Below, in pieces: positions 2,220 through 63,787 of a stretch of 64,000 bases of DNA (position 1 is its first letter; each line of letters starts with the position of its first letter). Where the stretch lies: positions 60,204,001 through 60,268,000 of the forward strand of contig OZ076409.1 of the NCBI GenBank assembly GCA_964187785.1, in the 5' to 3' direction. The translations under genes were made by a program, and so were the position numbers. This DNA is from Amphiscolops sp. MND2022. Taxonomy: Eukaryota. Under the pieces are notes generated by a model. It did not search any database. It saw nothing but the letters and a program-made list of their open reading frames with translations, and was not told the DNA's origin.

Positions 2220-3506
2220 ATGGGTTGCTACAGACCCATCAGTTTACTATGCTGCTGCTCAAAAATACTGGAAAAAGTCATATTTGACGGTATATACAAG
2301 CATACCAAAGATAGACTACACGAAAGTCAATTTGGTTTCCGCAAACGGAGATCAGCGACAATCCAATTGTTAGTGTTCCTTGACCGATTATATGAATTCT
2401 ATGACAAGGTAGAAACAGACCAGCTAGCTGTTTTATATCTCGATTTTGCCAAAGCCTTCGATACAGTCCCCCACGACATCCTGATTCAGAAAATAGAAAA
2501 CTATGGAATTGGTGGAAAGCTGCTTTCTATTATAAAATAGTATCTAACTGATAGAAAACAATACGTTCGTATCGAGGACAGCAGGTCTACCCCAAAAGCA
2601 GTGACGAGTGGGGTCCCACAGGGGTCTATCTTGGGTCCTCTCTTTTTCCTACTATTCATAAACGATCTCCCTGAATTACTAAATGAAGTTGATAGCTTTT
2701 GCTATGCAGATGATTTCAAAGTCATAACCCGGAAGCAAACTCAGCTGGATGATTCAACTGTAAAAATAGAAAACTGGTTGAATGCTAACAAAATGATGCC
2801 CAATATCAAGAAATCGACAATTCTCAATCTGCGAGGAGAACAAAGCGCTACTCTGATGAAAAAGTCGCTCTCAAATGTTCAAATTCAACGCGATCTGGGA
2901 GTCATGATCAGCAACAACCTTAGCTGGAATGAAAACAGTAACAGGCGTGCAACCAAAGCAATGGGTGCTTTTTTTCAAATCAAGCGAAGTCTTTCGCAGA
3001 AATGTGCTATCATAACGAAATTGAACGCATATACTGGCTACGTAGTACCCATCCTAACTTTTGCCTCCCAGACATGGCTACCAAACAAAACAAATTCTGT
3101 AACACTGGAGAAAGTTCAAAAATTGGCTACTCGTTGGATCTTGGGTCCAGAAAAAAGCTATTGCGAAAGAATGAAAGAGCTGAAGCTCCTCCCCCTCAGT
3201 CTCTATATGGAAATGCACGATATCCTGATATTGCTGGCTATGCTCAATGACAAGTATGATGTAGTACTTAATGAAACCTTGCCACATGCATATGATTCAA
3301 CCAGACAATTTCAACGAGGAGAGCTACCAATTGCCCAGACTCGACTCTGGTACAATGAGACAAACACGTGTACATGGAGACTCCTATGCAGATGTGGAAA
3401 CTGCAACATTTTTGAAAAACTACGACCAAATTAAAACTCGGACTATCCAAAGGGAAACCTCCTAGGGCTACGCCCTGAAGTCTATTCTACTACTACTACT
3501 ACTACT
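2220..3506 (+). mobile_element. 5'-truncated CR1/L2-type LINE; RT pseudo-ORF with one nonsense codon and a (TAC)n tail
   Basis: YRPISLL, QFGFR, YLDFAKAFDTVPH, SGVPQGSILGPLFF, YADD, RDLGV. ORFs 2220-2540 and 2601-3434 are in the same frame, separated by TAG at 2538-2540. Tail ctactactactactact at ~3487-3506. Confidence 0.92.
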
Positions 3507-41426: not shown

Positions 41427-42708
41427 ACATCCTGCACTGGGCGATGTTGTTTCGTTTCTAAGATCTACAATATTTTTTCCACATTTTTGAGTGTTTTAAA
41501 TGTTTGAAGTTAAGGACCCGTCCAATATTTTTTTGTGAATTAATTGAGGCTGCAAGGTGTCTGATCGTTTGTACAAGCGTATTAGCAGGGTATACGAAAT
41601 ATATAACAAGGTTGATGCAGCGGTTGTGCCAATATAGCTTTAGTTTGATGTGCCACTTTTTCATTGCCAGATTTTTTTGCATCCGAAACTGACGCAGTCA
41701 ACTCTCAAGTCAATAATTCCAATCGACGACCTTGAGTTTTTCTCAAATTGGCGCGACACAGCCGTAGGCTGTGAGCTCAGAACTTATCCTTGGTTTCCAT
41801 CGTTTTTATGTCCTGCTTTTTACATGACAGCTCAAATGGAAATTCATCAAAGCGCTTGGCTGTGTCTTGTTAGTTTTTAACATATTCATCGAAACAATTG
41901 ATTTTCTAAACATAGGGATTAATCTCCTCCATATGGTTTTTGCTTGTTACGTAATATTTTTGTGTAACTGACTGGCACAAGACTGATTATTCCTTCAATG
42001 GCAAAAACGCACCAATATATAAGTACTCGCTCAGTTCTGTATTTTTTCCAAGACTAATCCGACAATTGCAACAAAAAGAAATATTATGACAAAATAATTC
42101 CCACTTCTATATTTTCCAGACTGACTGCGTACATAAAAATACAATTGAGAACATAAAAATATACCATATTACATGACAAACTTTAAAAAAGCTTCGATGC
42201 TAGATAACAAGTGTTGAGTTCGATAAAACATGACCATGCGCAAATTAAGCTCATCTCAGTGGAATCAAACTTTCTTGCAGTGATGTCAGAAACCACGACG
42301 AAGTTATCTGCGTCATTTTTAAACAGGCCTTGTGAACGACAGAAGCCAATTATGGTTAAAGGTTTCATCAAAATTTATAACTCTTGCTTATTAAACTTAC
42401 TGCTCGTTCAACTCAGAACACTTGAGTAGAATTGATCACAAAGCGAATTTTTATCGTCACATTTGTTTGAAAACATGTCTCGCCAGAAATTCCGAAACCC
42501 ATCTTCTTGACTGTGTTTTATTACGTAACAAGGAACCGTGTGCATATACGTACATTTAAAGCTGCTACCTGATTATGCAATCCTCAATCCTTATTCATCG
42601 TTTTGATTCAATACCCTTCGAAAGCGTTCGTCCTATTACTTTTTAACGAAATTAGGGAACTTTAGATTGTAAATCTCCCCCATTTTCTGTACAAAATATC
42701 TTTTCAAA

Positions 42709-43438
42709 ATGTTACACAACCAATATTGCCGCCAGAGCTTCAATTTCTGCCAGATTTTGAGCAAAATTACTGCCTTAACTAGCTTTATTATTTTATTTTT
42801 AGTTTTTATATTACCAACTTCCAGAGTTAACTCATCCGAAATTGGTTACTCCATTTATGAAAACGATGGACCCACGACAGTTGTTGCGAATCTTGCCGAA
42901 GATAACAATTGGGATGGAATTGACAGTGTTTATGAAAGTTTTGCAAAAAGTACCAAATGTTACAATTTGAGTAGTGCTGTCGAGATATCTGAGGTGGACT
43001 ATTGGCTGAAAACTTCGGGGCCCCTAGATCGCGAAAAGTGCGAAGTTTACGAAGCTCTGGTTGTTGCAGCTACCAATGTCTGGACTATCCAGTTAAAGGT
43101 TTTGGACGTAAATGACAATGAACCCAGTTTCGATCAACCAAATTGCTTTCTGGAACTGGATGAAAATTTGGGCTCTGAAAACCAGATTGATCTTAGCGAA
43201 CGATGCACACCCAAAACATTTCTGGCCAGAGACAATGATGGACCTGAATTCCGGATCCAGAGCTTTTCAATCGTTTCTGGTAATGAAGCCGGTTTGTTCG
43301 GCATTGAGAAAAACGAGAAAGGAAATCCTCAAACTCCTCAACCCGATTTGACTCTTACTCGACAGATAAGTTTAGACGATGCATCCGAAGATGGAATTAT
43401 TATGTTGACAATCGAGGCTTCTGATGAAGAGAATAAAG
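42709..43438 (+). CDS. DCHS: Dachsous exon: signal peptide, EC1 and most of EC2
   Basis: Hydrophobic signal FIILFLVFILP, LDREK, LDVNDNEPSF; donor GT at 43439. Confidence 0.9.
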
Positions 43439-46400
43439 GTTTGAAAATTTAAAAATTGGCTTCCATTTTTGTACCGAATGGTTTTAGATTGACAGTTCTC
43501 ACTACCAAGTAGAAATACCAAGGGTTTGAATTAGCTGTGGGTTTCGTTTCTGAAGAACGATCTTATTGTATGTCTAGTGCTGAAATTTTTGCTGTTTCTT
43601 GATGAAACTGTGGTGTTAAAAAACATTGAAAAACTTTGGCAGTGAAGTTTTGAATATCAGCGAAAACTTTGGGAAACTAACTTTCCAAAGCCTGAATAAT
43701 TTAAAAATTTCTCAAGCTCTCAAACGTTTGGCATCAGTTTTTTGCTCCTCAAAGGTCTATTAACCTCGATAGTACACTGAGAAGTAGAAAATTGACAACA
43801 ATTTCGCAAAAGTTTTTTTTCTCAGCTTCATTTCTCCACTAATATTAGCCGCAGCTAAAATCGGTTTTCTGCTCCTGAAAGTCTTCAAGTAAGCTTTCAA
43901 ATGCGCACACTAGTTTGGCTGGAAATTGGCGCCGCATGTTGGTGTGAGAGCACCACACCGGGCTTTTCAAATGGGGTCAAACTCATAACTGAATCTTCAT
44001 TGAAAAACCTTCTATATGCGTTTTCAATGGTGGCCTGCTGTGTTATTAGAATGGGACAGTAACTTAACAACCAGTAGCTCAGTTATTGAGAAAAGGCTAT
44101 ATTCCTGAACTGTAAAATTTTGCAAATTTTCACTTTTTTCCAGTGACTTTTTTGCGGTGACTCAAAAGAGAGCACAAAAATTGTGCACATAAGAGCATAA
44201 GAGAGATTAAAAGCGTGGTGTTGAAACTTTCGGTCTTTGGTGTATACGAGGTATTTTCAACAGTTATTTTACTTGATATGGGTATATTTGTTTTCCTCAT
44301 TTAACCTGCCCCAAAAACTGTCGTCACGAATATTTTGAAACTTTGGATAAAACTAGCGTTAACTAGTAATTACTAACTTCTGATTGCATTTCTAATTTCG
44401 GCGCAACTCATAGTGCCACTGCGTAGCCCTTGTATTTGAACCATAAGTTTGCGGACTAGATGCAAAATTGAAATATGAAACTTAGAAATTTAGCAAACAA
44501 TGAAACAGATCAAGGCATTCATCAATAGTTATCGGAAGATGTTAAGTGATCGCTGAAACGTTCCTAATCATTGTATCTGTTTGCATTTTCAGTGTTCACT
44601 GAATCAAGCTGGTAGTTGTACTCAAACTTGACAAGTATAGTTAGAGAGAACCTGTACTGACACTACACTGGACTTAAGTCCTTGCCAGGACAACTCAAGA
44701 TTTCCAAGTCGTTGACAGGATAACTCGAGGATTCCAAGTGCTATCAAAGATTTTTCTGTTTTCGATAAAATCGCAAGTCCCTTCCAGCCTTTGTCCAGTC
44801 CTTAGCAGTCCTTGAGAAAATTCGATAAGAAAATCGAAGTTGCATATAGAGGGCGGCCATATTAGATTTGTGTAGTAAAAGCTAGTTGCTAGTACTTTCT
44901 ATCACTTTGAAGAGTATTTTGTATCAAATTTGCCCCAAGCGAACTAGGGTATGGTCAGAATAACTCTTCGATACTATTCTAATGTGTCTCGGTTCATTAG
45001 TACCGAAAATATTAAAAGAAAAATCGGCTTTTCCTTTCTCCCCGCATCTTATTGTAAGAGACATCCAACATTGTTTTTGTGCTAAATAATTTCATTTAAT
45101 ATTGTGAATGGGGCTTTTTCAAGGCCCTGCTTGTTGGTAGCCATGCTAGTGTCGACTGTTTCTCAATTGGCCAGCCGACTGTAGAAACGGATATTTTCGT
45201 GGTCGTTATATTTTTATCTGACCATAGACTATTTTCACAATTTTTGCAATTTGACATACTGACAGAGTCGTTTTCCGGCACCCAATAATAACTATTTTGA
45301 CTTAATCTAGCACCTATTTGGCCCTCATAAACCCTTATCGGTTTTGAGTTGTTCCGTGTTCCAGGATTCCCCAGGCAAGGATTGGTCCAGGACTTGTAAG
45401 GCTAAAACTGTAACAGGTAAGGACTGGTACAGAACTTGAAAAGCCCTTGCTGGTCCTTGGGAATTCTTGGCAGTCCTGGAATTCAAATTTTTGTCAGTAC
45501 GGGAACATCCAAAAGCAAGTTTGGCAATAATTTGTTTCTGTGTAGCCTTTTCCACGGACAAAACACCCAAGTTTTTTTATCCCATGCTGGTTACTCCATC
45601 GTTTGTATATTCAAACTCAGTTTTTAAAGCACTATAAAATCATCTTTAAAAATTTCCGTTGTCCGAATTGATATGCTCACAAAAATGTTTGAAAACAGCC
45701 GAAAAACAGTGACTAATTTACAAAACACGTTCAACACTTAGAGGCTTTTTTGTGTAAAATGGCCTCATCAGCTTCCTATAAGACTTTCAGATTCGAATAT
45801 GAACACTATTTAGGGCCAATTTGGATTGAAAACATTCAAAGGCTGCACTAAAATGGCATAAACCTATCAAAACTTTCTTACAATTTGGAAAAATGTTTCT
45901 CAAAACAAACTTCAAATTCATTTGTAAGCAAATATGCTCATGAGTAGTAGCTTACTGCTTCGTCTTTTAACCCTAACCCACGCAGCGTCGCCATATGGCA
46001 ACATAACTTTTTTTTCAAATTCTAATCCGTTTTGCCAGTAGCCCAAAGTCTCTAGCACAGTTTTTTCTCGAAAAATTCCTTGGTACCTAGATTGGTTTGA
46101 ATGGCACAAACATTAGGAAAAATGAATATGTCCCCAAAATTGAGAAAAATGACTTTTTTGCACAAAATTGGTCCTCTTTTTCCTAAATTTCCGTTTTCGG
46201 CGAAATCCAGTTTTCTCAAAAAAATCTGACCCATAATAAAACCCAACTCCATACACTTGCACAACCAACTCCTATGCAAAAGATCCCAATAATATTCTGT
46301 TGTTACTACAAGCCCCCGGAAAAAGAAACTAAAATTCTGAAAGAGGGGGCGCGCGGCGACAGGGGCTCACCTGACCAAAATGAAAGCCCAATACCAGAGC

Positions 46401-55400: not shown

Positions 55401-58003
55401 TGTGTATTTGTGGAGATTTTTTCGGACTTTTACAGTTTTTATGCAATTTTAGTCAAATTTTCGAAAGATTTCCTGCCTTTGAATGTTGAAAGAGTAAATT
55501 TCGTTATCCAAGTGGTTTTTTCAAAGAAATAAATGCAACTTTATAAAGAAAAAGTTCCTCAAATTGCGATCGAAATTGAAAAAACTTCCAAAAAGTTCGG
55601 ATTATTACCGTTTTTATGCAATTTTTGTCAAATTTTTGACACACATGCTAGCTTAGAAAGTTAAAAACATTCAAGAAGGAAAGATTTTGTTGTCCAAGAG
55701 GCGTCGTGGAAGTTATAAATGCAATTTGATTTGTAAAAATGCCTCAAATTCAAACCGAAAATGACAAAAATTCCAAAAAATTCAGATTTTTGAAAATTTC
55801 ATGCAATTTTTGACTATTTTTCGAATGACTTGGTGGCTTAGAATGTCAAAGACGTTCAAAAAGGCAACAATTTGTTGTCCGGGGGCTTTTTTGAAGAGGT
55901 AAAAGAACTATGTTTTGGAAAAAGGCATCAAATTAAGACCGGAATTGACAAAAATTCCGAAAAATTTAAGTTTTTGAAAATTTTATGACGATTTTGTGTA
56001 CTTTTCGAAAAACTTGGTGGCTTAGAAAAATACAGACACTCAACAAGGAATAAATTCGTTGCCAGAGAGGCTTTTGTTAAAAAGTGACAAATTTTTACTG
56101 AAAAAAAACGCACAATTTGCTACCAAAAATGACGAAAACTTCAAAATGTACTAATTTTTCACCTTTTTATGCAACTTTTGTCAAGTTTCTATAGATTCCC
56201 TGAATCAAAACGTTGAATACGATCAACAGCGATTGATTTTATTGTTCAATATGGTTGTTTGGGGAGATAAATGCAGTTTTGCAGAAAAAATTGCAACAAG
56301 GACCACGAAATAGTCAACAAGTCTTACTTTGTTTTACATTTTGGTATTTTCCAACGCAACTTTTGTAAAAACTTCGTTTTTTTCATGGATTAAAGCTCTG
56401 AAACGGTTCAACAACAACTGAAGGCGTTCTCCTGTAGGCTTTTTGATGAAATATGTGCCAATTTCTGAACGAAAATTCAGCTTTAATTTGACACAAAAAT
56501 TGTCGAAAAGTCCTAAAAATTTCAGTTTATGTAGGTTCTTCATGTTATTTGAGTATCATTTTTGAGGAAATTGGTAAATTAGATGGTTGAAAACAAACCG
56601 AGGTGATAAAATCAGGTATGTAGTTTCCTTTCTGATGAGAAAATTACAGTGTTTCACATCAGAAATTTTTCAAGTTGGTCGTTTTTCCAACAGTTTGTGT
56701 TCAATTTTTGAAAGTTTCTGTGACCAAGAATGTTCAAAACAATCAAACACGATGAAACTAGCTATGCAGTATGCTATTTTGAAGAGAGCTGCAGTATTTA
56801 GCTTCAAAAGTGGTCCTGATTAGTCCGATACAAAAAGTCTAAATTCAACGTTTCTAAAGCAAAGTTCCGAATTTTTTGAGGAGTTTCCATCGTTGGAAGA
56901 AAAAAAACCCTCAGAAGCGAACGAATGCGTTGTTCAGTAGGTTTTTTGCAGGTGAATTGCAGTTTCACGTTAGAAAAGAACCTCAAAATGACCCCAAAAT
57001 AGTCGAAAAAAGTTTTGGCAGTTGTTTGACAATTTAGTGAATTTCTATTGAAAGTTACCAAAATTTCGTAAAATTGTAAAAGTCTAAATTTAATTTAGGT
57101 AGGCATGCAGAATGTCCAAAAAAGAAATCTACAATTGTGTATGCAAAAAGTTCGTCAGAATGATTTGAACTTTAGCGGAAATCCGTTTTTTGTTTTTGAA
57201 ATGTTGATATACTTTTATGTAAACGTTTCGAGCGATTTTGCAATTCAAGAATGAGTGGACCCGTTATCCAAAAAGCGTTTTGAAAAGACATCTACAGTTT
57301 TTTTAAAACTTCCTCAAATGACCGCAAAGTTGTCGAAAAACAAAAATCTACAATTTTTGACATTTTTGGCTACTTCACGCAAATTTAAAAAAAATGATTG
57401 GTACGGTTACACACAATCTGACGAAAAAACAAATAGGTGTTTGGTGTCTTCTTAAAGTGTTTCCTTCTGAAATGGCATAACATTATTCAAAAAGTCTCAA
57501 ACCTTTTTCCATCAAACCTCTAAGCGTTTCCATAGTGTAATGACTACTCTTGTCTCAAAAATATGTCATTGCTTGAACAGTTTGGACGGAAAATATCCTG
57601 CTGGTCAGCGGGCGTCTTGTTTATTTGGTAATCAAAACTTCATCTGGAAATCCGACTTTACTCAATGTTTTAGATGCACCATCGGAGAACCATCGATGAT
57701 TGAAATATGATCCTGACCGTTTTTTTCATGTTTGTTTTTATGTTGCAGGAATAATTCGTCTTGCTAAACCGTTTCCTCGGCCGGAACTTCTTCCAGCGGA
57801 CATGATTTACGTCATAGTAGTGGAAGCCAGAGACGGAGGTGACTTAAGGTCAGATGAGTCATCAAGAGTGAGTCTGACAGTCACCGGAGTGGGTATAGAA
57901 CCACCTGTGTTTGATGAGCCCCTCTATTCTTTCTCAATTCCCGAGGGGCCGCAATCGGTCGGGGAGGAGATTGGCTCAATCAAGGCCACTTACAATCCTG
58001 GGA
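42709..58003 (+). CDS. DCHS: Dachsous-like protocadherin, 5' part (signal peptide and roughly EC1-EC8); incomplete, continues beyond the window
   Basis: Exons: 42709-43438, 46720-46935, 49311-49620, [gap], 50398-50657, 54611-54786, 57749-58003; phases consistent. Cadherin Ca-binding motifs LDRE, DVNDNEP, DLNDNGP, ATDADRGENA. Dachsous-like stretches: ETLYL...RVTLVDPDD, F-x-VEADSGAICT...LD, ARDGGDLRSDESSRVSLTV...PPVFDEPLYSFSIPE...IKATYNPG (cf. DCHS1 AEDGGGLQAEPSARVDISI...PPIFEQLQYVFSVPE, from memory). Confidence 0.85.
44651..45503. mobile_element. Non-autonomous CMC/EnSpm-like transposon
   Basis: TIRs CCTGTACTGACA / TGTCAGTACGGG, AA on both flanks (2-bp TSD), subterminal gtcct/aggac repeats. 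Confidence 0.6.
45971..46516. mobile_element. piggyBac-like MITE
   Basis: TTAA|CCCT...AGGG|TTAA termini; TIRs are short and imperfect. Confidence 0.55.
46720..46935 (+). CDS. DCHS: Dachsous exon (EC2/EC3)
   Basis: AYANITITIVDLNDNGPIF...VQATDADRGENAVIVYSI...FSINEETG. Confidence 0.92.
47440..48243 (+). mobile_element. HINE family B-like copy with a different interior (GC-rich block and tRNA-like head)
   Basis: ATTTTCCGC start; gcggaagatat...agcgggcgtcttgtt end. Confidence 0.55.
49311..49620 (+). CDS. DCHS: Dachsous exon (EC3/EC4)
   Basis: GDIYVNDVLDREAY...IEDVNEFPP...VDPDD; donor inferred at GTTATA 49621. Confidence 0.88.
49720..49919. other. Assembly gap (200 N)
   Basis: Run of exactly 200 N. 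Confidence 1.
49985..50370 (+). mobile_element. CORE-like tRNA-derived SINE fragments (two)
   Basis: B box GGTTCGAATC; MIR/CORE-like text ccttaagcaagtc and ccttgaacaagtcactt; (AAAAAC)n tail at ~50140-50165. Confidence 0.55.
50398..50657 (+). CDS. DCHS: Dachsous exon (approximately EC6)
   Basis: WFHVEADSGAICTKSDLDFE...IHVQIEDVNEH; tttcag/GTAAGA. Confidence 0.9.
51596..53418 (+). mobile_element. Cluster of three head-to-tail HINE family A copies (51596-52276, 52357-52903, 52996-53418)
   Basis: Each begins TTTAGTCGG(C/T)(G/A)C and ends CC(G/T)GACTT-stem-loop-TTGTT. Internal aagggtcccc tandem units; a (tatactatta)n microsatellite in the first copy. Confidence 0.78.
54611..54786 (+). CDS. DCHS: Dachsous exon (approximately EC7)
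   Basis: PVMDESEY...VTASDADSGGVFGEIRY...GLFTLDPTTG. Confidence 0.9.
54929..54990. repeat. Near-perfect 62-bp palindrome
   Basis: 27-bp perfect arms aaaccttcaattgaatgtgttttcatg / catgaaaacacattcaattgaaggttt around ggttaacg. Confidence 0.9.
55249..57622 (+). mobile_element. HINE family B with a degenerate ~185-bp tandem array (Dachsous intron)
   Basis: subTIRs ATTTTCCGTCC / GGACGGAAAAT; same 5' block and cagcgggcgtcttgttt end as 24134-26997. Confidence 0.75.
57749..58003 (+). CDS. DCHS: Dachsous exon (approximately EC7/EC8)
   Basis: GIIRLAKP...EARDGGDLRS...PPVFDEPLYSFSIPE; donor GTAAGT at 58004. Confidence 0.9.
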
Positions 58004-58057
58004 GTAAGTTAGAAAAGCATGTCTGAAATATCAATGAATGAACATTATTAATAATAT

Positions 58058-59981
58058 TGTAGAAATTTTAGTTTTTGGCGTCTACAAAAAAATGCATTGC
58101 GTTTGCGCGAAGTACATATGACAAATTGAACTGTGTTAATCACGTTTTTAGACCGTCGGAAAAATGACAATAGCTAAAAAGGCTGACAATAACGTGCTTC
58201 GATATGGCTTATTTGGCAAACTAGACTTTTATAAAGTAAACGAAACTTAATAGGCGAAATTAACGAGCTAGCGAGATACGCCGATGACGAATTTGTCCGA
58301 ATTAACTAAGTTAGAATCGACCGCTTCGAGCAAAAATTACTAAGTTTTTATTTTGGGCAAAAACAAGAGGTATGTAAAAAAACACCACCCCCCCCCCCGT
58401 CCCGGCGAACTACTGAACCGATCCCGCTGAAATTTGGCACACGTATACCTGAGCTGTTATGCTACTTGTCCATAAAAAGGGAACCGAGCCGAGACCCCCC
58501 AGTCCCGGGCTATTAGCACCGGAAGTGACCTAGGTCGACCCCCCTATGATCTCGTCGGCCAATCACGGAATAAATCAGATTTTGTATGGAATTGATAGCC
58601 CATAGGATATTAGGCCGTTTGCGCATATTTTTGGAACCCTACGACGCGTGTAGGAGGAGCACGGACCCTAAGTAAATAAACCCCGAACGTCATGTAAATC
58701 GCCAACGGATGACCCAAAGATCATGAAACTTACCCAAGATGTTCACCTAGTAACCCTAAGTAATATACATGAAAGATACATTGATCGGCACACCACGCGC
58801 GGAGTAATGTTTGTTTAAGGCACGCGGGACCGGACGCGCGGGCCCGACCGATAAATGACATTTGACCTTGGCTTGTAATATATCAAACGAACCGGAATGA
58901 TGAATGTAGTCGATTTATAACGTGAATGAAACCGTATTTGTAACCCATGCGGGTTTAGCCGCCTTAAGTAAACAAACGATACGCATATCACGTAACTCGA
59001 AGACCATTGACCCTAGGACGATATAACTTGGCATGTAGCAACTTTAGATGAAGACAGATGACTTCAACGTCACCGATGGACCTCAAGGCCATTCTAGATG
59101 TCACCCCGGAGCAGATAGGAAAACGTACATTAAAACATGTAAATCAGCGTCTTTAAGCGATAATTTATGCATTTCAGTCAGGCGGATCGATTCGCGATGT
59201 ATTGTACCTAGGATGATGGAAAAGTAACCCTCATACGTAGAGAGCATGTAAACCATGTAACTGAAGGTCATTAAACGATTGGCTCGATATTGGAAATATC
59301 TTGGTTGACTTGAATTATTATTGAAATGTGAACTTTGTACAACCTTTGTTGAAGTATTTGTCGTGGGCGGCGAAGTATGTCTGGCCGAAACATAACTAGA
59401 GAGCTGCCATGCCATAAAAGGAATGGAACTACATGAAGTTAAAAGCATGCATATAAAAGAGCGACATCGGTACAACAAAAATGCGGCTGATGGATAAATA
59501 TCTCAGGGAGGGAAAAAGAGACCGAATTGACACAGAAGAACGATTACGAAGTTAAGAGTAAGTTGAGCCGTGTGCGGGCAAGAAACCTACTCGAGATCGA
59601 ATTTGACTTAACTGCTTTGTGAGAGCAGAGAATTAGTTACAAGTCCGGGACTTGGAAATCTTTTGAGTGAATCGTGATTCTGGCACAGTCTTGTCGAGTT
59701 ATTTTATATAATTCATTCACCTGCTGTGCTATTGTTATCTGATTGAGAGTTTATATACTGTGGAAATCTTCGACTTGTATTATCCAGATAATTCCTGAAT
59801 TAGAGTATTAATTGCAAGCAACTTTTCAATAGTGTTTTTGGAGTCGAAACTTGAGCACTGGAGAGACCTTGTGTAAAGAATACGCGATACGTGGACGAAA
59901 CTTACTCACTAAAAACTAAACCTTTCTGTTAGAATCGAGCCATTGGGATTTCTCTCCAACCCTCTAGCAAAAATTTCCACA
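58058..59981 (+). repeat. 5' LTR (~1.9 kb)
   Basis: Starts TGTAGAAATTTT and ends AAAATTTCCACA (11/12 inverted match), directly before the PBS. Colinear and homologous with the reverse complement of 38478-40319. Confidence 0.85.
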
Positions 59982-59982
59982 G

Positions 59983-60000
59983 TGGCGCTCCTGGGTGGGC
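59983..60000 (+). promoter_or_regulatory. Primer binding site, tRNA-Asn type
   Basis: TGGCGCTCCTGGGTGGGC, 1 nt after the LTR-terminal CA; complementary to a tRNA-Asn-like 3' end (...CCCACCCAGG(G/A)..CGCCA). Confidence 0.8.
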
Positions 60001-60183: not shown

Positions 60184-60951
60184 ATGGAAGACGAACAGCG
60201 ACTTGCAATAATGGAGGCTGTCGCCCAAGGGGTGATACAGGGCCTCAACGGGAATGAGAATCGGCTGTTTGGCAATGGAGCAATCAGACCTGACAGCTTC
60301 CCCTCGCAGAACTATCCAGATTGGTCCCAATGGAAAACGCACTTTTACAGAGTTGGCAGAGCCAACGGATGGACTGAGTTGCAAGGTCTGCAAGCTGTGC
60401 CTGTGTGCTTGATTGGGTACGCATTGGACGAGTACAACGCTGCGCCTCGAGAACTGAGAGAGCAAGTGGACGGGGAAGATGCACCTACGTTAGCTGCACT
60501 ATTCAATTACCTGGGTAGAGAAATGGGGATGATGCGAAATGACCGTCTGGGGAAAGCAGAATTTAGAAAACTTCGACAGCAACCGGAGGAAACCCTGAGG
60601 GACTTTGCCCGACGAGTGAGAAACATTGGAAAAATTGCCTACTCAGAGAAGGACCCCAACACGAGAGACGAGTTGTTCCGCGAGAAGTTCCTCGAGGGTT
60701 TGAGCGACGTACAACTGGAAGTGCAGCTGTTGAAAGAGAACCCACAAACATTTGGGGATCTAGTGAACAGGGCTGTTGACTTGGAAGTTATTGCTCGAAC
60801 AACACGTGGCCGTTCACGGAATGAACAAGAGAGGTACGAAGAGTTGGAAGGCAGCAAGACTCAAGTTGTGAGTTCCGTGGTTATTCACCCGAACCGTGGA
60901 AAGAAGGGATACACCAGATCACAAGAAGAATGGACCAGATGGCACAGATGA
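60184..60951 (+). CDS. gag: Retrotransposon Gag (capsid-like) ORF, N-terminal part
   Basis: ATG at 60184. PDSF...DWSQWKTHFYRVGRANGW...CLIGYALDEY and FRKLRQQPEETLRDFARRV...LFREKFLEGL are typical Ty3/gypsy capsid text. Confidence 0.85.
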   Translation: MEDEQRLAIMEAVAQGVIQGLNGNENRLFGNGAIRPDSFPSQNYPDWSQWKTHFYRVGRANGWTELQGLQAVPVCLIGYALDEYNAAPRELREQVDGEDAPTLAALFNYLGREMGMMRNDRLGKAEFRKLRQQPEETLRDFARRVRNIGKIAYSEKDPNTRDELFREKFLEGLSDVQLEVQLLKENPQTFGDLVNRAVDLEVIARTTRGRSRNEQERYEELEGSKTQVVSSVVIHPNRGKKGYTRSQEEWTRWHR

Positions 60952-62678
60952 TGATGACGTTCATGGAAACTCTGTCAACAACTGTGAGGCCTGAGAAGCA
61001 GGCTGGGATGACAGACCCACCCAAACGTGAGGCCACCCTTGCGGCAACCGAACGAAAATTCAAGGAAAATGGCGGTTTTGTAGCCGATATCTGCCCTGTT
61101 TGCGATGGTTTTGGACATTTTCCCCAGCAATGCCCCAAACGGCAGGTGGTGGTCGAAGAAGTTCCAGATGTGCATGGGAAGTTGACAAGAGAGAAAGCTG
61201 CACAAATTGTTGAGAGGGCCGGCTTGGCAATTGAAAGAAAGGCGCTGAACGCTGTGCGTGTGGTAGACTGTTCTGGTTGTAACAGCGGGGTTTTCGTGAA
61301 AGCCCGAATCGAGGGAAGAGAGATGGACATTTTGTTGGACACGGGAGCTGGCGTGAACGTGGTGGACTCAAGTACAATGGAATCTCTTAGACCCCCTGAT
61401 GAGATCAAAGAGTTTCGTGGAGAGTTGCGGTCTGTAGACGGTCAACCAGTGACGACTAATGGATTAACCCGACTAAATTTGCAGCTGGGACCCTTGAAGG
61501 AGCAAGAAGAATTTGTGGTGGTTCCCCACTGCGAGCCATCCGTTATTCTAGGCTTGAACTTCGTGAAAAAGCATAGAATGATTTTTGACTTTGGGAAAGA
61601 CGAACTGTCCATACCTCCTCTGTCCTCAGAACCGTTGAAAATGAGAGTTGTTGCATCGCAATGGGGCGAAGACGGAGGAAGTTGTTACCCGCGGAGCACC
61701 AGTGACAGCCGTGAAAGCGCGGAGACTGAACATCCATGGTCGGCATCCTCCACTCAGCACTTGAGGGCTCCCGAGAGCAGGAATTCAAGATGGGAATCCG
61801 GAGAGAAACCGCCACCAAGGCGTTGGGACGCAATGATAGTGGACGCAAATGCTGATTTCCGCATGGTATCGACAACGGAGTCTAAGTACAGGTGTGATCG
61901 CAGCAGATGCTCCATCGTTACTACCCTGAAACCTCGACAGACTACACTTTTTGGCGATGATGACGTCGACGTTGAACGCGGAAACCCGAAGTACAAAGAG
62001 ATCGAGGGAGACCTATTTTCGTCCAAAGGTTGTTTGGCTCACTGTGTTTCGGCAGATTTCCACATGGGGACCGGAGTTGCCAAGCAAGTCAAAATGAGGT
62101 ATTCCACTACATATCCGAAGGACGTCAACCACAAGAAACAGCCAGTTTTTGCGCAGTGGATTGAAGGAGAACATCGCTACGTGTATCACCTGGTCACCAA
62201 ACAACGATACTTCGAGAAACCGACCTACGAATCCGTGAAAACGTCGCTGCAACAGATGAGAACCCACGCGGAGTGGTCTGGGGTCGACAGAATAAGCCTG
62301 CCAAGGATTGGCTGCGGTTTGGATCAACTGAATTGGAGTGAAATGAGACGTCTAATTAAAGACGTCTTCAAAGGGAGTGACGTAGCTATTACAGTGTATG
62401 TATGCCCTCAGCAGAACCCGACTCCCAATTGCGAGACTGACGTCGAAGAAGTTGGAAGCAGAAGGGGAGAACGCCCTTCGCCGACACCTTCCAGCTCGGG
62501 GTACATTGACGACTGGTTCGACAGGAACCAACAATGGGAACTGGGAAAGTTCAAGGAGCAAGGGTTGCGGTCTCTCCGACACGAGAGGAGCGAGAATGCA
62601 GGATTGTGGTTAGTCAAGCGCGGAGCGGCCCACCCAGATGTCACTGCACCGTACAAACGTGAGAAGATGATGGCTTAA
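60930..62678 (+). CDS. Gag C-terminus (CCHC), aspartic protease, TARG1/OARD1-like macrodomain and eroded RT/RNase H remnant
   Basis: CPVCDGFGHFPQQC (61092-61133), LLDTGA (61332-61349), ILGLNF, macrodomain 61992-62399 (GDLF...LAHCVSAD..MG.GVA...LVTK...KPTYE...PRIGCGLDQLNW...ITVY). This frame is open back to 60825. Confidence 0.9.
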   Translation: MDQMAQMMMTFMETLSTTVRPEKQAGMTDPPKREATLAATERKFKENGGFVADICPVCDGFGHFPQQCPKRQVVVEEVPDVHGKLTREKAAQIVERAGLAIERKALNAVRVVDCSGCNSGVFVKARIEGREMDILLDTGAGVNVVDSSTMESLRPPDEIKEFRGELRSVDGQPVTTNGLTRLNLQLGPLKEQEEFVVVPHCEPSVILGLNFVKKHRMIFDFGKDELSIPPLSSEPLKMRVVASQWGEDGGSCYPRSTSDSRESAETEHPWSASSTQHLRAPESRNSRWESGEKPPPRRWDAMIVDANADFRMVSTTESKYRCDRSRCSIVTTLKPRQTTLFGDDDVDVERGNPKYKEIEGDLFSSKGCLAHCVSADFHMGTGVAKQVKMRYSTTYPKDVNHKKQPVFAQWIEGEHRYVYHLVTKQRYFEKPTYESVKTSLQQMRTHAEWSGVDRISLPRIGCGLDQLNWSEMRRLIKDVFKGSDVAITVYVCPQQNPTPNCETDVEEVGSRRGERPSPTPSSSGYIDDWFDRNQQWELGKFKEQGLRSLRHERSENAGLWLVKRGAAHPDVTAPYKREKMMA

Positions 62679-63484: not shown

Positions 63485-63787
63485 TTAAAGTAAGAAATGT
63501 GGAGGGGTTGGCTCCCGCAGAGCACCCCAGAGTTTTTGGCGGGCAATGAGGAGACGAAGTTTTTGCACTCCCACCAGACCAATCTCCGATGTGGCGAGGT
63601 TCCTCAGGAAGATGACGAATTCTACCCAACCAGGGCTAAGGTAGTCCAGACATAACGCGCCCAATTCGCCCTCCACGGTCAGCTGGACCTCGTGATGCTC
63701 TGCAATTTCCATACGGGTGACCTCGAACACCACGCGGAAGTACTGAGACTCCCAAACTAAGTTCAGTAAGAAAGGGCCTTGTGCCAT
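63485..63787 (-). CDS. Hypothetical 100-aa antisense ORF inside the LTR element
   Basis: Good start context (AACAACATGG), GC-rich coding-like island and globular-looking composition. No recognised homology. Confidence 0.4.
   Translation of the reverse strand: MAQGPFLLNLVWESQYFRVVFEVTRMEIAEHHEVQLTVEGELGALCLDYLSPGWVEFVIFLRNLATSEIGLVGVQKLRLLIARQKLWGALREPTPPHFLL

What the first reader, a model, noticed from the sequence alone, without database searches (positions are those of the whole stretch)
62400..62678. Pol reduced to in-frame remnants (YIDD; HPDVTAPY) while Gag-PR-Macro stays open
Seen: only ~90 codons follow the macrodomain. They contain YIDD (62502-62513), LGKFKEQGL and HPDVTAPY (62631-62654), then a stop and non-coding DNA. 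Known: YxDD is the RT active site, L..L...GL follows it in gypsy RTs, and HPDF..PF precedes RNase H. Inference: this is a non-autonomous lineage that deleted RT/RNase H/integrase but kept capsid, protease and the ADP-ribose eraser. It may be a 'helper' or parasite that supplies particles and anti-defence while borrowing RT in trans.
Basis: partly seen in the sequence, partly recalled or inferred. Interest (0 to 1): 0.72.

Follow-up and report, generated by a model that had tools for sequence, protein, structure and literature searches.

The report
Pol-less retrotransposon carrying ADP-ribose eraser
A young family of jumping genes encodes a shell protein, a protease and a predicted ADP-ribose-removing enzyme but no copying enzymes, and it likely borrows those from a complete relative that shares its end repeats but lacks the eraser; the flagged 'reverse transcriptase remnants' did not hold up.

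Summary
The motifs are at the stated coordinates, but they did not test as RT remnants. The 92-residue tail matches no part of 12 Pol proteins better than shuffles. YIDD lacks the RT strand context, and the H of 'HPD' is private to this copy. In the closest macrodomain relatives the domain lies after RT-RNase H. The window copy is frameshifted between Gag and protease, and the 'non-coding' DNA holds two small conserved ORFs. The wider inference holds. This is an 8.5-kb, young (LTRs 99.5% identical) gypsy-type element with no RT, RNase H or integrase, and at least 93 macrodomain sites occur genome-wide. Gag, protease and a TARG1-type macrodomain are under purifying selection. An autonomous gag/pol/env-like family shares its LTR (87-93%), tRNA-Asn PBS and PPT. 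The two LTR sets interleave (p-AU 0.005), although Gag is only about 52% identical. The partner has no macrodomain. It works like wheat Sabrina_SA/WHAM with Wilma; the conserved eraser fused in frame to Gag is the new part. Mobilisation in trans and enzyme activity are inferred. The scan earlier noted Gag-protease-only elements in other genomes and TARG1-in-Pol in this genome.

The parts
58053..58057 (+). 5-bp target-site duplication AATAT (repeated after the 3' LTR, L022:2559-2563)
   Evidence: sequence
58058..59981 (+). 5' LTR, 1924 bp, TG...CA; 99.5% identical to the 3' LTR (L022:634-2558, beyond the window); 87-93% identical to LTRs of the autonomous partner
59983..60000 (+). primer-binding site complementary to the 3' end of host tRNA-Asn(GTT); same as the partner's
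60184..60951 (+). gag (capsid region); in this copy cut from the rest by a frameshift near 60.84 kb
   Evidence: about 52-54% identical to partner Gag
61092..61133 (+). CX2CX4HX4C zinc knuckle
   Evidence: sequence
61296..61568 (+). aspartic protease with intact DTG motif (61332-61352)
   Evidence: Pfam Asp_protease_2 E=4.8e-10; shared-variant dN/dS 0.24
61620..61994 (+). linker between protease and macrodomain, near neutral; weak, non-significant likeness to the RNase H start or the post-RNase H linker
   Evidence: dN/dS 0.83
61986..62405 (+). TARG1/OARD1-type macrodomain; keeps the residues aligned to TARG1 K84 (in LVTKQ, 62190-62204) and D125 (in GLDQL, 62316-62330)
   Evidence: PDB C6orf130/OARD1 E=1.7e-31; catalytic roles from PMC9967889 passages; dN/dS 0.20-0.25
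62403..62678 (+). the flagged in-frame tail (YIDD, LGKFKEQGL, HPDVTAPY): weakly constrained, origin not established, no detectable RT palm homology
63485..63787 (-). antisense 100-aa accessory ORF, conserved across subfamilies and in two other pol-less lineages, absent from some copies and not found in the partner

Best explanation
This is one young copy of a semi-autonomous gypsy-type LTR retrotransposon family that encodes Gag, protease and a TARG1-type macrodomain but no RT, RNase H or integrase, and it is likely copied by the enzymes of an autonomous, envelope-like-gene-bearing family that shares its LTR, tRNA-Asn primer site and polypurine tract. Shown: the anatomy, copy number, youth, purifying selection on Gag/protease/macrodomain, the partner's existence, the partner's lack of a macrodomain, and the interleaving of the two LTR sets. 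Inferred: (1) both RNAs are made from the same LTR promoter and packaged in the same particles, where the partner's Pol reverse-transcribes and integrates the pol-less RNA; (2) template switching in such particles keeps the LTRs and the leader homogenised while the coding regions stay old and diverged; (3) because the macrodomain is in frame with Gag in unbroken copies, it would be made at Gag rather than Pol level, cut out by the protease, and would strip ADP-ribose from particle proteins or cDNA. The flagged tail is a drifting C-terminal leftover, not the RT active site; its source cannot be assigned.
For: No RT/RH/IN in 26 of 26 family stretches. In 23 of 25 macrodomain sites on C1, C2 and the first 57 Mb of C3 the PBS lies only 2.17-2.24 kb upstream, leaving no room for RT (my subtraction of coordinates). 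There are 93 exact family macrodomain 18-mer sites against 19 partner RT 18-mer sites (lower bounds). LTR-LTR identity is 97.4-100% in 23 of 23 family copies and 99.6-100% in 6 of 7 partner copies. TSDs are perfect in 11 of 14 scorable copies of 19 examined. The partner has gag 347 aa, pol 1420 aa with PR-RT-RH-IN (Pfam), and a 749-aa third ORF with a weak Baculo_F hit, E=0.0017, below cut-off; PBS, PPT and about 75 nt of leader are shared. On the LTR tree the family's monophyly is rejected, p-AU 0.005, and in every 250-column window the best partner LTR is closer to this copy than 15-20 of 22 sister LTRs. Four other Asn-primed autonomous families share only the PBS junction; five other macro-bearing families share no DNA similarity and have a different PBS. 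The Gag tree groups the family with the partner and two other pol-less lineages, support 82/98. Shared-variant dN/dS: capsid 0.06, protease 0.24, macrodomain 0.25, against linker 0.83 and tail 0.55.
Against: LTR sharing could also come from DNA-level gene conversion, and recombination breaks the tree model behind the AU test. The tail's dN/dS rests on 4 synonymous and 8 non-synonymous shared variants, so some constraint on it is not excluded. The YIDD word is rare by chance in a 92-mer (0.16%), and in the anchored test 1 of 7 tails (L179) scored z=3.2 against the sequence after RT YxDD. This copy itself is frameshifted, so it would not make the full fusion unless a ribosomal shift rescues it. 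Only about 30 of at least 93 copies were read directly.
Confidence: 0.8

Rival explanations
1. One reading: the tail is a collapsed RT palm-to-RNase H remnant (YIDD = catalytic YxDD), so the ancestor ran Gag-PR-Macro-RT.
For: The YIDD word is rare by chance in the tail. Some gypsy Pols have the macrodomain before RT (P0005, P0006), and two related Pols (A family, P0003) use YIDD. L179's tail scored z=3.2 after the anchor.
Against: 0 of 5 hydrophobic residues precede YIDD, against 2 or more in 129 of 130 real RTs. The flank before YIDD scores at or below shuffles in 7 of 7 tails, and the flank after it is not significant in 6 of 7, including this copy (p=0.54). HMM of 130 RT palms: p=0.07-0.73. 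YIDD-to-'HPD' spacing is 43 against 137 residues in the partner, and H is private to this copy. The partner RT is FLDD. Sister tails read HIDD, YINE, YVDE, KADE. The seven closest macrodomains (42-52%) all lie after RNase H.
Confidence: 0.07
2. The tail is a decayed piece of a different part of Pol: either the RT N-terminus (D.F..N...ELG, KRG..Q, PY in order) or the helix that precedes integrase (W at +39 against +38 in four relatives).
For: RT N-terminus: anchored z=2.0-4.2 in 5 of 7 tails; hhalign E=0.037, 0 of 20 shuffles as high. Pre-integrase helix: BLAST extends the macrodomain match to that W; L179 z=2.5.
Against: The RT N-terminus anchor was chosen after seeing the likeness. With no anchor and the best window allowed to shuffles, 0 of 5 tails are significant (12-36 of 60 shuffles as high). 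The RT N-terminus HMM gives p=0.30-0.71. The pre-integrase test is not significant in 6 of 7 tails.
Confidence: 0.35
3. The macrodomain was not retained from the family's own pol but captured, from the other macro-bearing gypsy clade in this genome or from elsewhere, after pol was lost. This changes the history but not the trans-mobilisation model.
For: The partner's RT sits in a five-member clade without a macrodomain (support 97, quick tree). The family's macrodomain is 42-52% identical to those of the other clade and only 19-35% to those of its own PBS clade, while its Gag is 26-29% against 53-54%.
Against: Sister clades K and H carry a degenerate macrodomain after RNase H, so inheritance with slow evolution is possible. 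Forcing the family's macrodomain together with these is not rejected (p-AU 0.067).
Confidence: 0.5
4. Pure parasite: the Gag-PR-Macro protein serves only the pol-less element (packaging or shielding its own RNA) and gives the partner nothing, or costs it Pol.
For: The family outnumbers the partner about 5:1. The partner and four relatives persist with no macrodomain. Purifying selection shows benefit to the element itself, not to the partner.
Against: If particles are shared, as the LTR exchange implies, a packaged eraser would act on both genomes (inference).
Confidence: 0.5

Closest known systems
RLG_Sabrina_SA and RLG_WHAM with their partner RLG_Wilma in wheat (PMC9744471; passages of sections 2.7, 2.8, 3.2)
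   Same: About 8-kb 'semi-autonomous' gypsy elements with an intact GAG-protease ORF and no RT/INT; same PBS and LTR termini as an autonomous partner; co-active; variants carry short unknown proteins.
   Different: Animal host; whole LTR shared and interleaved rather than a few motifs; a TARG1-type macrodomain fused in frame that the partner lacks; the partner has an envelope-like ORF.
Fatima subfamilies 1.4/1.5 versus 1.1 in wheat (10.1101/363192; passage)
   Same: Subfamilies with gag and protease only, beside a subfamily that supplies RT and integrase.
   Different: There the RT/INT donor is proposed to need the others' Gag; here the partner encodes its own Gag and protease. No macrodomain mentioned in the passage.
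TR-GAG elements (PMC4350172; abstract and passages)
   Same: Non-autonomous LTR elements that keep Gag and are still mobile.
   Different: TR-GAGs are under 4 kb and were selected for lacking protease; this element is 8.5 kb with protease, macrodomain and two small ORFs.
Human TARG1/OARD1 (C6orf130; PDB 2EEE, 4J5Q) and bacterial DarG (PMC9967889; passages)
   Same: Same macrodomain subclass, E=1.7e-31; residues aligned to K84 and D125 are kept (residue numbers counted by me along the aligned human sequence, its first residues recalled).
   Different: Here it is part of a retroelement polyprotein; activity and substrate are untested.
Fish endogenous retroviruses with macro domain ORFs (PMC4977317; one passage citing Basta et al. 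2009, which I did not see)
   Same: Reverse-transcribing elements that carry a macrodomain.
   Different: Retroviridae, extra ORF; not a pol-less element supplying the domain.

Membership tests
Ty3/gypsy LTR retrotransposon (autonomous) | TG...CA LTRs, 5-bp TSD, tRNA PBS, PPT | tested here: met
Ty3/gypsy LTR retrotransposon (autonomous) | gag and aspartic protease | tested here: met
Ty3/gypsy LTR retrotransposon (autonomous) | RT, RNase H, integrase in that order | tested here: not met
   0 hits in 26 of 26 stretches; met only in the partner
RT active-site remnant | YxDD inside a hydrophobic beta-hairpin, alignable to an RT palm | tested here: not met
Semi-autonomous Gag-protease element (Sabrina_SA/WHAM type) | conserved Gag-protease ORF without RT/INT in many copies | tested here: met
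   15 of 22 copies unbroken; dN/dS 0.06-0.24; this copy is frameshifted
Semi-autonomous Gag-protease element (Sabrina_SA/WHAM type) | same PBS and LTR termini as an autonomous partner | tested here: met
Semi-autonomous Gag-protease element (Sabrina_SA/WHAM type) | active at the same time as the partner | tested here: met
   LTR-LTR 97.4-100% and 99.6-100%; both samples biased to top hits
Semi-autonomous Gag-protease element (Sabrina_SA/WHAM type) | matching sub-family structure over all copies | not tested
   only an LTR tree of 33 copies
Semi-autonomous Gag-protease element (Sabrina_SA/WHAM type) | mobilisation by the partner's enzymes | not testable with these tools
   inferred from shared cis signals
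TR-GAG | under 4 kb, Gag only, no protease | tested here: not met
   8.5 kb with protease
TARG1/DarG macrodomain | sequence similarity and catalytic Lys/Asp | tested here: met
TARG1/DarG macrodomain | ADP-ribosylhydrolase activity | not testable with these tools
   needs an enzyme assay

The most novel reading that the evidence does not exclude
A two-component retroelement with divided labour: the autonomous family brings RT, integrase and envelope, while a more numerous pol-less satellite, tied to it by one recombining LTR pool, loads shared particles with a Gag-level ADP-ribose eraser and two small swappable accessory proteins, as counter-defence against host ADP-ribosylation of retroelement cDNA or particle proteins.
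Probability: 0.25. Interest if true: 0.8.

Novelty: new variant of a known kind. Interest (0 to 1): 0.5.

Why it matters
Gag-protease-only LTR elements that ride on a partner are known from cereals. A case in an animal where the dependent family keeps a catalytically intact-looking TARG1 domain under selection, while its helper has none, is a natural experiment on why retroelements carry macrodomains. It points to host ADP-ribosylation as a possible anti-transposon defence, and gives one small domain to assay. It also shows that a YxDD word in a short tail is not evidence of an RT remnant.

Tried and rejected
RT-palm reading of the tail: rejected. Tail as the end of the envelope-like ORF of family B (PDVTAP match, E=1.3) or as the GPY/F end of integrase: at shuffle level. 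Pol remnants in the protease-macrodomain linker: the RNase H start gave p=0.004-0.078 in 8 related sequences and the post-RNase H linker E=0.017, but the two motifs are in the wrong mutual order and the anchor-free test is not significant (4-25 of 60 shuffles as high), so I leave it as a hint. Five macro-bearing autonomous families (A-E) as partner: rejected, with a different PBS, 0.65-0.78-kb LTRs and Gag 27-29% identical. Families H, J, K, M as partner: same PBS but no LTR similarity. Four odd-length Gag hits checked for a hidden parent with pol: none had RT. Sense and antisense small ORFs as paralogues: not supported (E=0.21). Small ORFs: no Pfam family; no usable atlas hit; the sense ORF model (pLDDT 80) had no clear match in PDB or viral libraries (best Z 4.9); the antisense model was too poor to search (pLDDT 46). 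Expression: no RNA holder was listed. Macrodomain origin: tree unresolved. The RT tree is the quick version; the careful search did not finish. Literature: 'macrodomain + LTR retrotransposon + gypsy' gave 0 papers. Searches gave listings with no title on this layout (listings only). PMC13524379 and PMC5408684 have no occurrence of 'macro' in the main text, and 10.1101/2021.11.30.470311 had nothing relevant (passages). Supplements, subscription journals and repeat databases were not seen and may describe such elements. The host species was not determined.

Full report
Observation. Two parts of the description are wrong for this copy. Gag and protease-macrodomain lie in two frames, with a break near 60.84 kb, although 15 of 22 sister copies examined have one 826-845 aa frame. 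The DNA after the stop holds two conserved small ORFs.

Anatomy. The element runs from 58058 to 2558 bases past the window end, 8.5 kb in all. It has 1.92-kb LTRs that are 99.5% identical, TSD AATAT, and a PPT before the 3' LTR. The PBS matches host tRNA-Asn. No pol lies downstream, and the partner's RT-RNase H-integrase finds nothing in 26 of 26 family stretches. The 701-bp region around the finding matched full length at 94-100% in 40 of 40 scored places, of 120 candidates. A macrodomain 18-mer occurs 93 times. For 23 of the 25 such sites that I could compare with the listed PBS sites, the PBS lies 2.17-2.24 kb upstream. The pol-less layout is therefore the family's state, not this copy's accident. 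LTR pairs are 97.4-100% identical in 23 of 23 copies.

Are the motifs RT remnants? The partner's RT reads FLDD, and the tail does not align to it. Profile comparison with RT palms is at shuffle level. An HMM of 130 palms gives p=0.07-0.73 for 6 tails. No hydrophobic residue precedes YIDD, against two or more in 129 of 130 RTs. The spacing to 'HPD' is 43 against 137 residues, and the H is private to this copy. Sister tails read HIDD, YINE, YVDE or KADE. The seven closest macrodomains sit between RNase H and integrase. Against this: the YIDD word arises in only 0.16% of tail shuffles; some Pols have the macrodomain before RT; and 1 of 7 tails scored z=3.2 downstream of the anchor. A likeness to the RT N-terminus reached z=2-4 in 5 of 7 tails with an anchor I chose after seeing it, and it vanished in the anchor-free test (0 of 5 significant). 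The tail's origin is open, but the active-site reading fails.

Selection. Among 14 unbroken copies (the most diverged tail, L086, left out), variants shared by two or more copies give dN/dS 0.06 for capsid, 0.24 for protease, 0.25 for the macrodomain, 0.83 for the linker and 0.55 for the tail, the last on few sites. Pairwise values over 15 copies agree in rank. The macrodomain is TARG1-type (E=1.7e-31) and keeps the residues aligned to K84 and D125, the catalytic pair in PMC9967889 (passages).

The partner. A search with a distant Gag showed a family with a separate 347-aa Gag at the same PBS sites. It encodes a 1420-aa PR-RT-RH-IN Pol with no macrodomain, and a 749-aa envelope-like ORF (the envelope call rests on position, hydrophobic ends and a sub-threshold Pfam hit). 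Its RT 18-mer occurs 19 times. Its LTR is 87-93% identical to this element's, with the same PBS, PPT and leader start, whereas Gag is about 52% and protease about 30% identical. In a tree of 33 LTRs the two families interleave and the family's monophyly is rejected (p-AU 0.005). Recombination strains that test, but it is also the point: the families share one LTR pool. Nine other autonomous families examined share no LTR.

Mechanism. Shown: parts, copy number, youth, selection, shared cis signals. Inferred: shared promoter, co-packaging, reverse transcription and integration by the partner's Pol, and LTR exchange by template switching. PMC9744471 names template switching or gene conversion as routes of LTR transfer (passage). 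Also inferred: in unbroken copies the macrodomain is in frame with Gag, so it would be made in capsid amounts. Whether it was kept from an ancestral pol or captured is unresolved. The partner's RT clade lacks it (quick tree), it resembles the other clade's domains more, and the tree test is inconclusive (p-AU 0.067).

Known and new. It works like wheat Sabrina_SA/WHAM with Wilma and the Fatima subfamilies, and it fails the TR-GAG definition. A bioRxiv study of sugar beet describes LTR exchange in non-autonomous families (10.64898/2026.03.01.708851; passages). My five searches showed no paper on a pol-less Gag-protease-macrodomain element, but the library is partial. Verdict: the flagged motif reading is wrong; the element is a real, young, semi-autonomous family with an identified likely helper, and a new variant of a known kind. 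Interest 0.5.

Noticed in passing
window 63485-63787 (-) and L022:77-370 (+): A divergent pair of about 100-aa ORFs in the 3' region, under purifying selection and swapped as cassettes between subfamilies. The sense ORF has 148 genome matches at about 26-100% identity. The antisense ORF and a diverged variant of the sense ORF also occur in other pol-less lineages; neither was found in the partner. No known family or fold.
   Followed up: partly
L113/L115 (G000:C3:62.66 Mb, C4:74.44 Mb) and L117 (C8:34.36 Mb): Two more pol-less lineages with the same PBS and about 80% identical LTRs. They have a separate Gag and a 450-aa second ORF with no protease or macrodomain motif.
   Followed up: partly
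L112 and L102 (partner copies), L151 (family H): Some partner LTRs are 2.75 kb and carry a 287-aa antisense ORF inside each LTR; family H has a similarly placed 292-aa ORF.
   Followed up: no
L071-L084: Five autonomous families with gag / PR-RT-RH-Macro-IN / long third ORF / fourth ORF and a different PBS (Leu-type from recall); several copies are young.
   Followed up: partly
L151-L164: Asn-primed families K and H carry degenerate macrodomains after RNase H, and family J one in front of the protease: the domain occurs at several positions in Pol.
   Followed up: partly
G000:C7:47.64-47.70 Mb: Dense array of sites matching the tRNA-Asn 3' end at about 200-bp spacing; 330 matches genome-wide. 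Two sites elsewhere are tRNA-Asn genes.
   Followed up: no
window 42673-43452 and 57751-58008: A cadherin-domain exon (Pfam) and a cadherin-like exon just 5' of the element (no Pfam hit): the element probably sits in an intron of a cadherin gene.
   Followed up: partly
window 2541-3434: Unrelated RT fragment (RVT_1 E=2.6e-13), 55 kb from the element.
   Followed up: no
L040 (G000:C5:30.71-30.72 Mb): Tandem copies of the family sharing one LTR.
   Followed up: no
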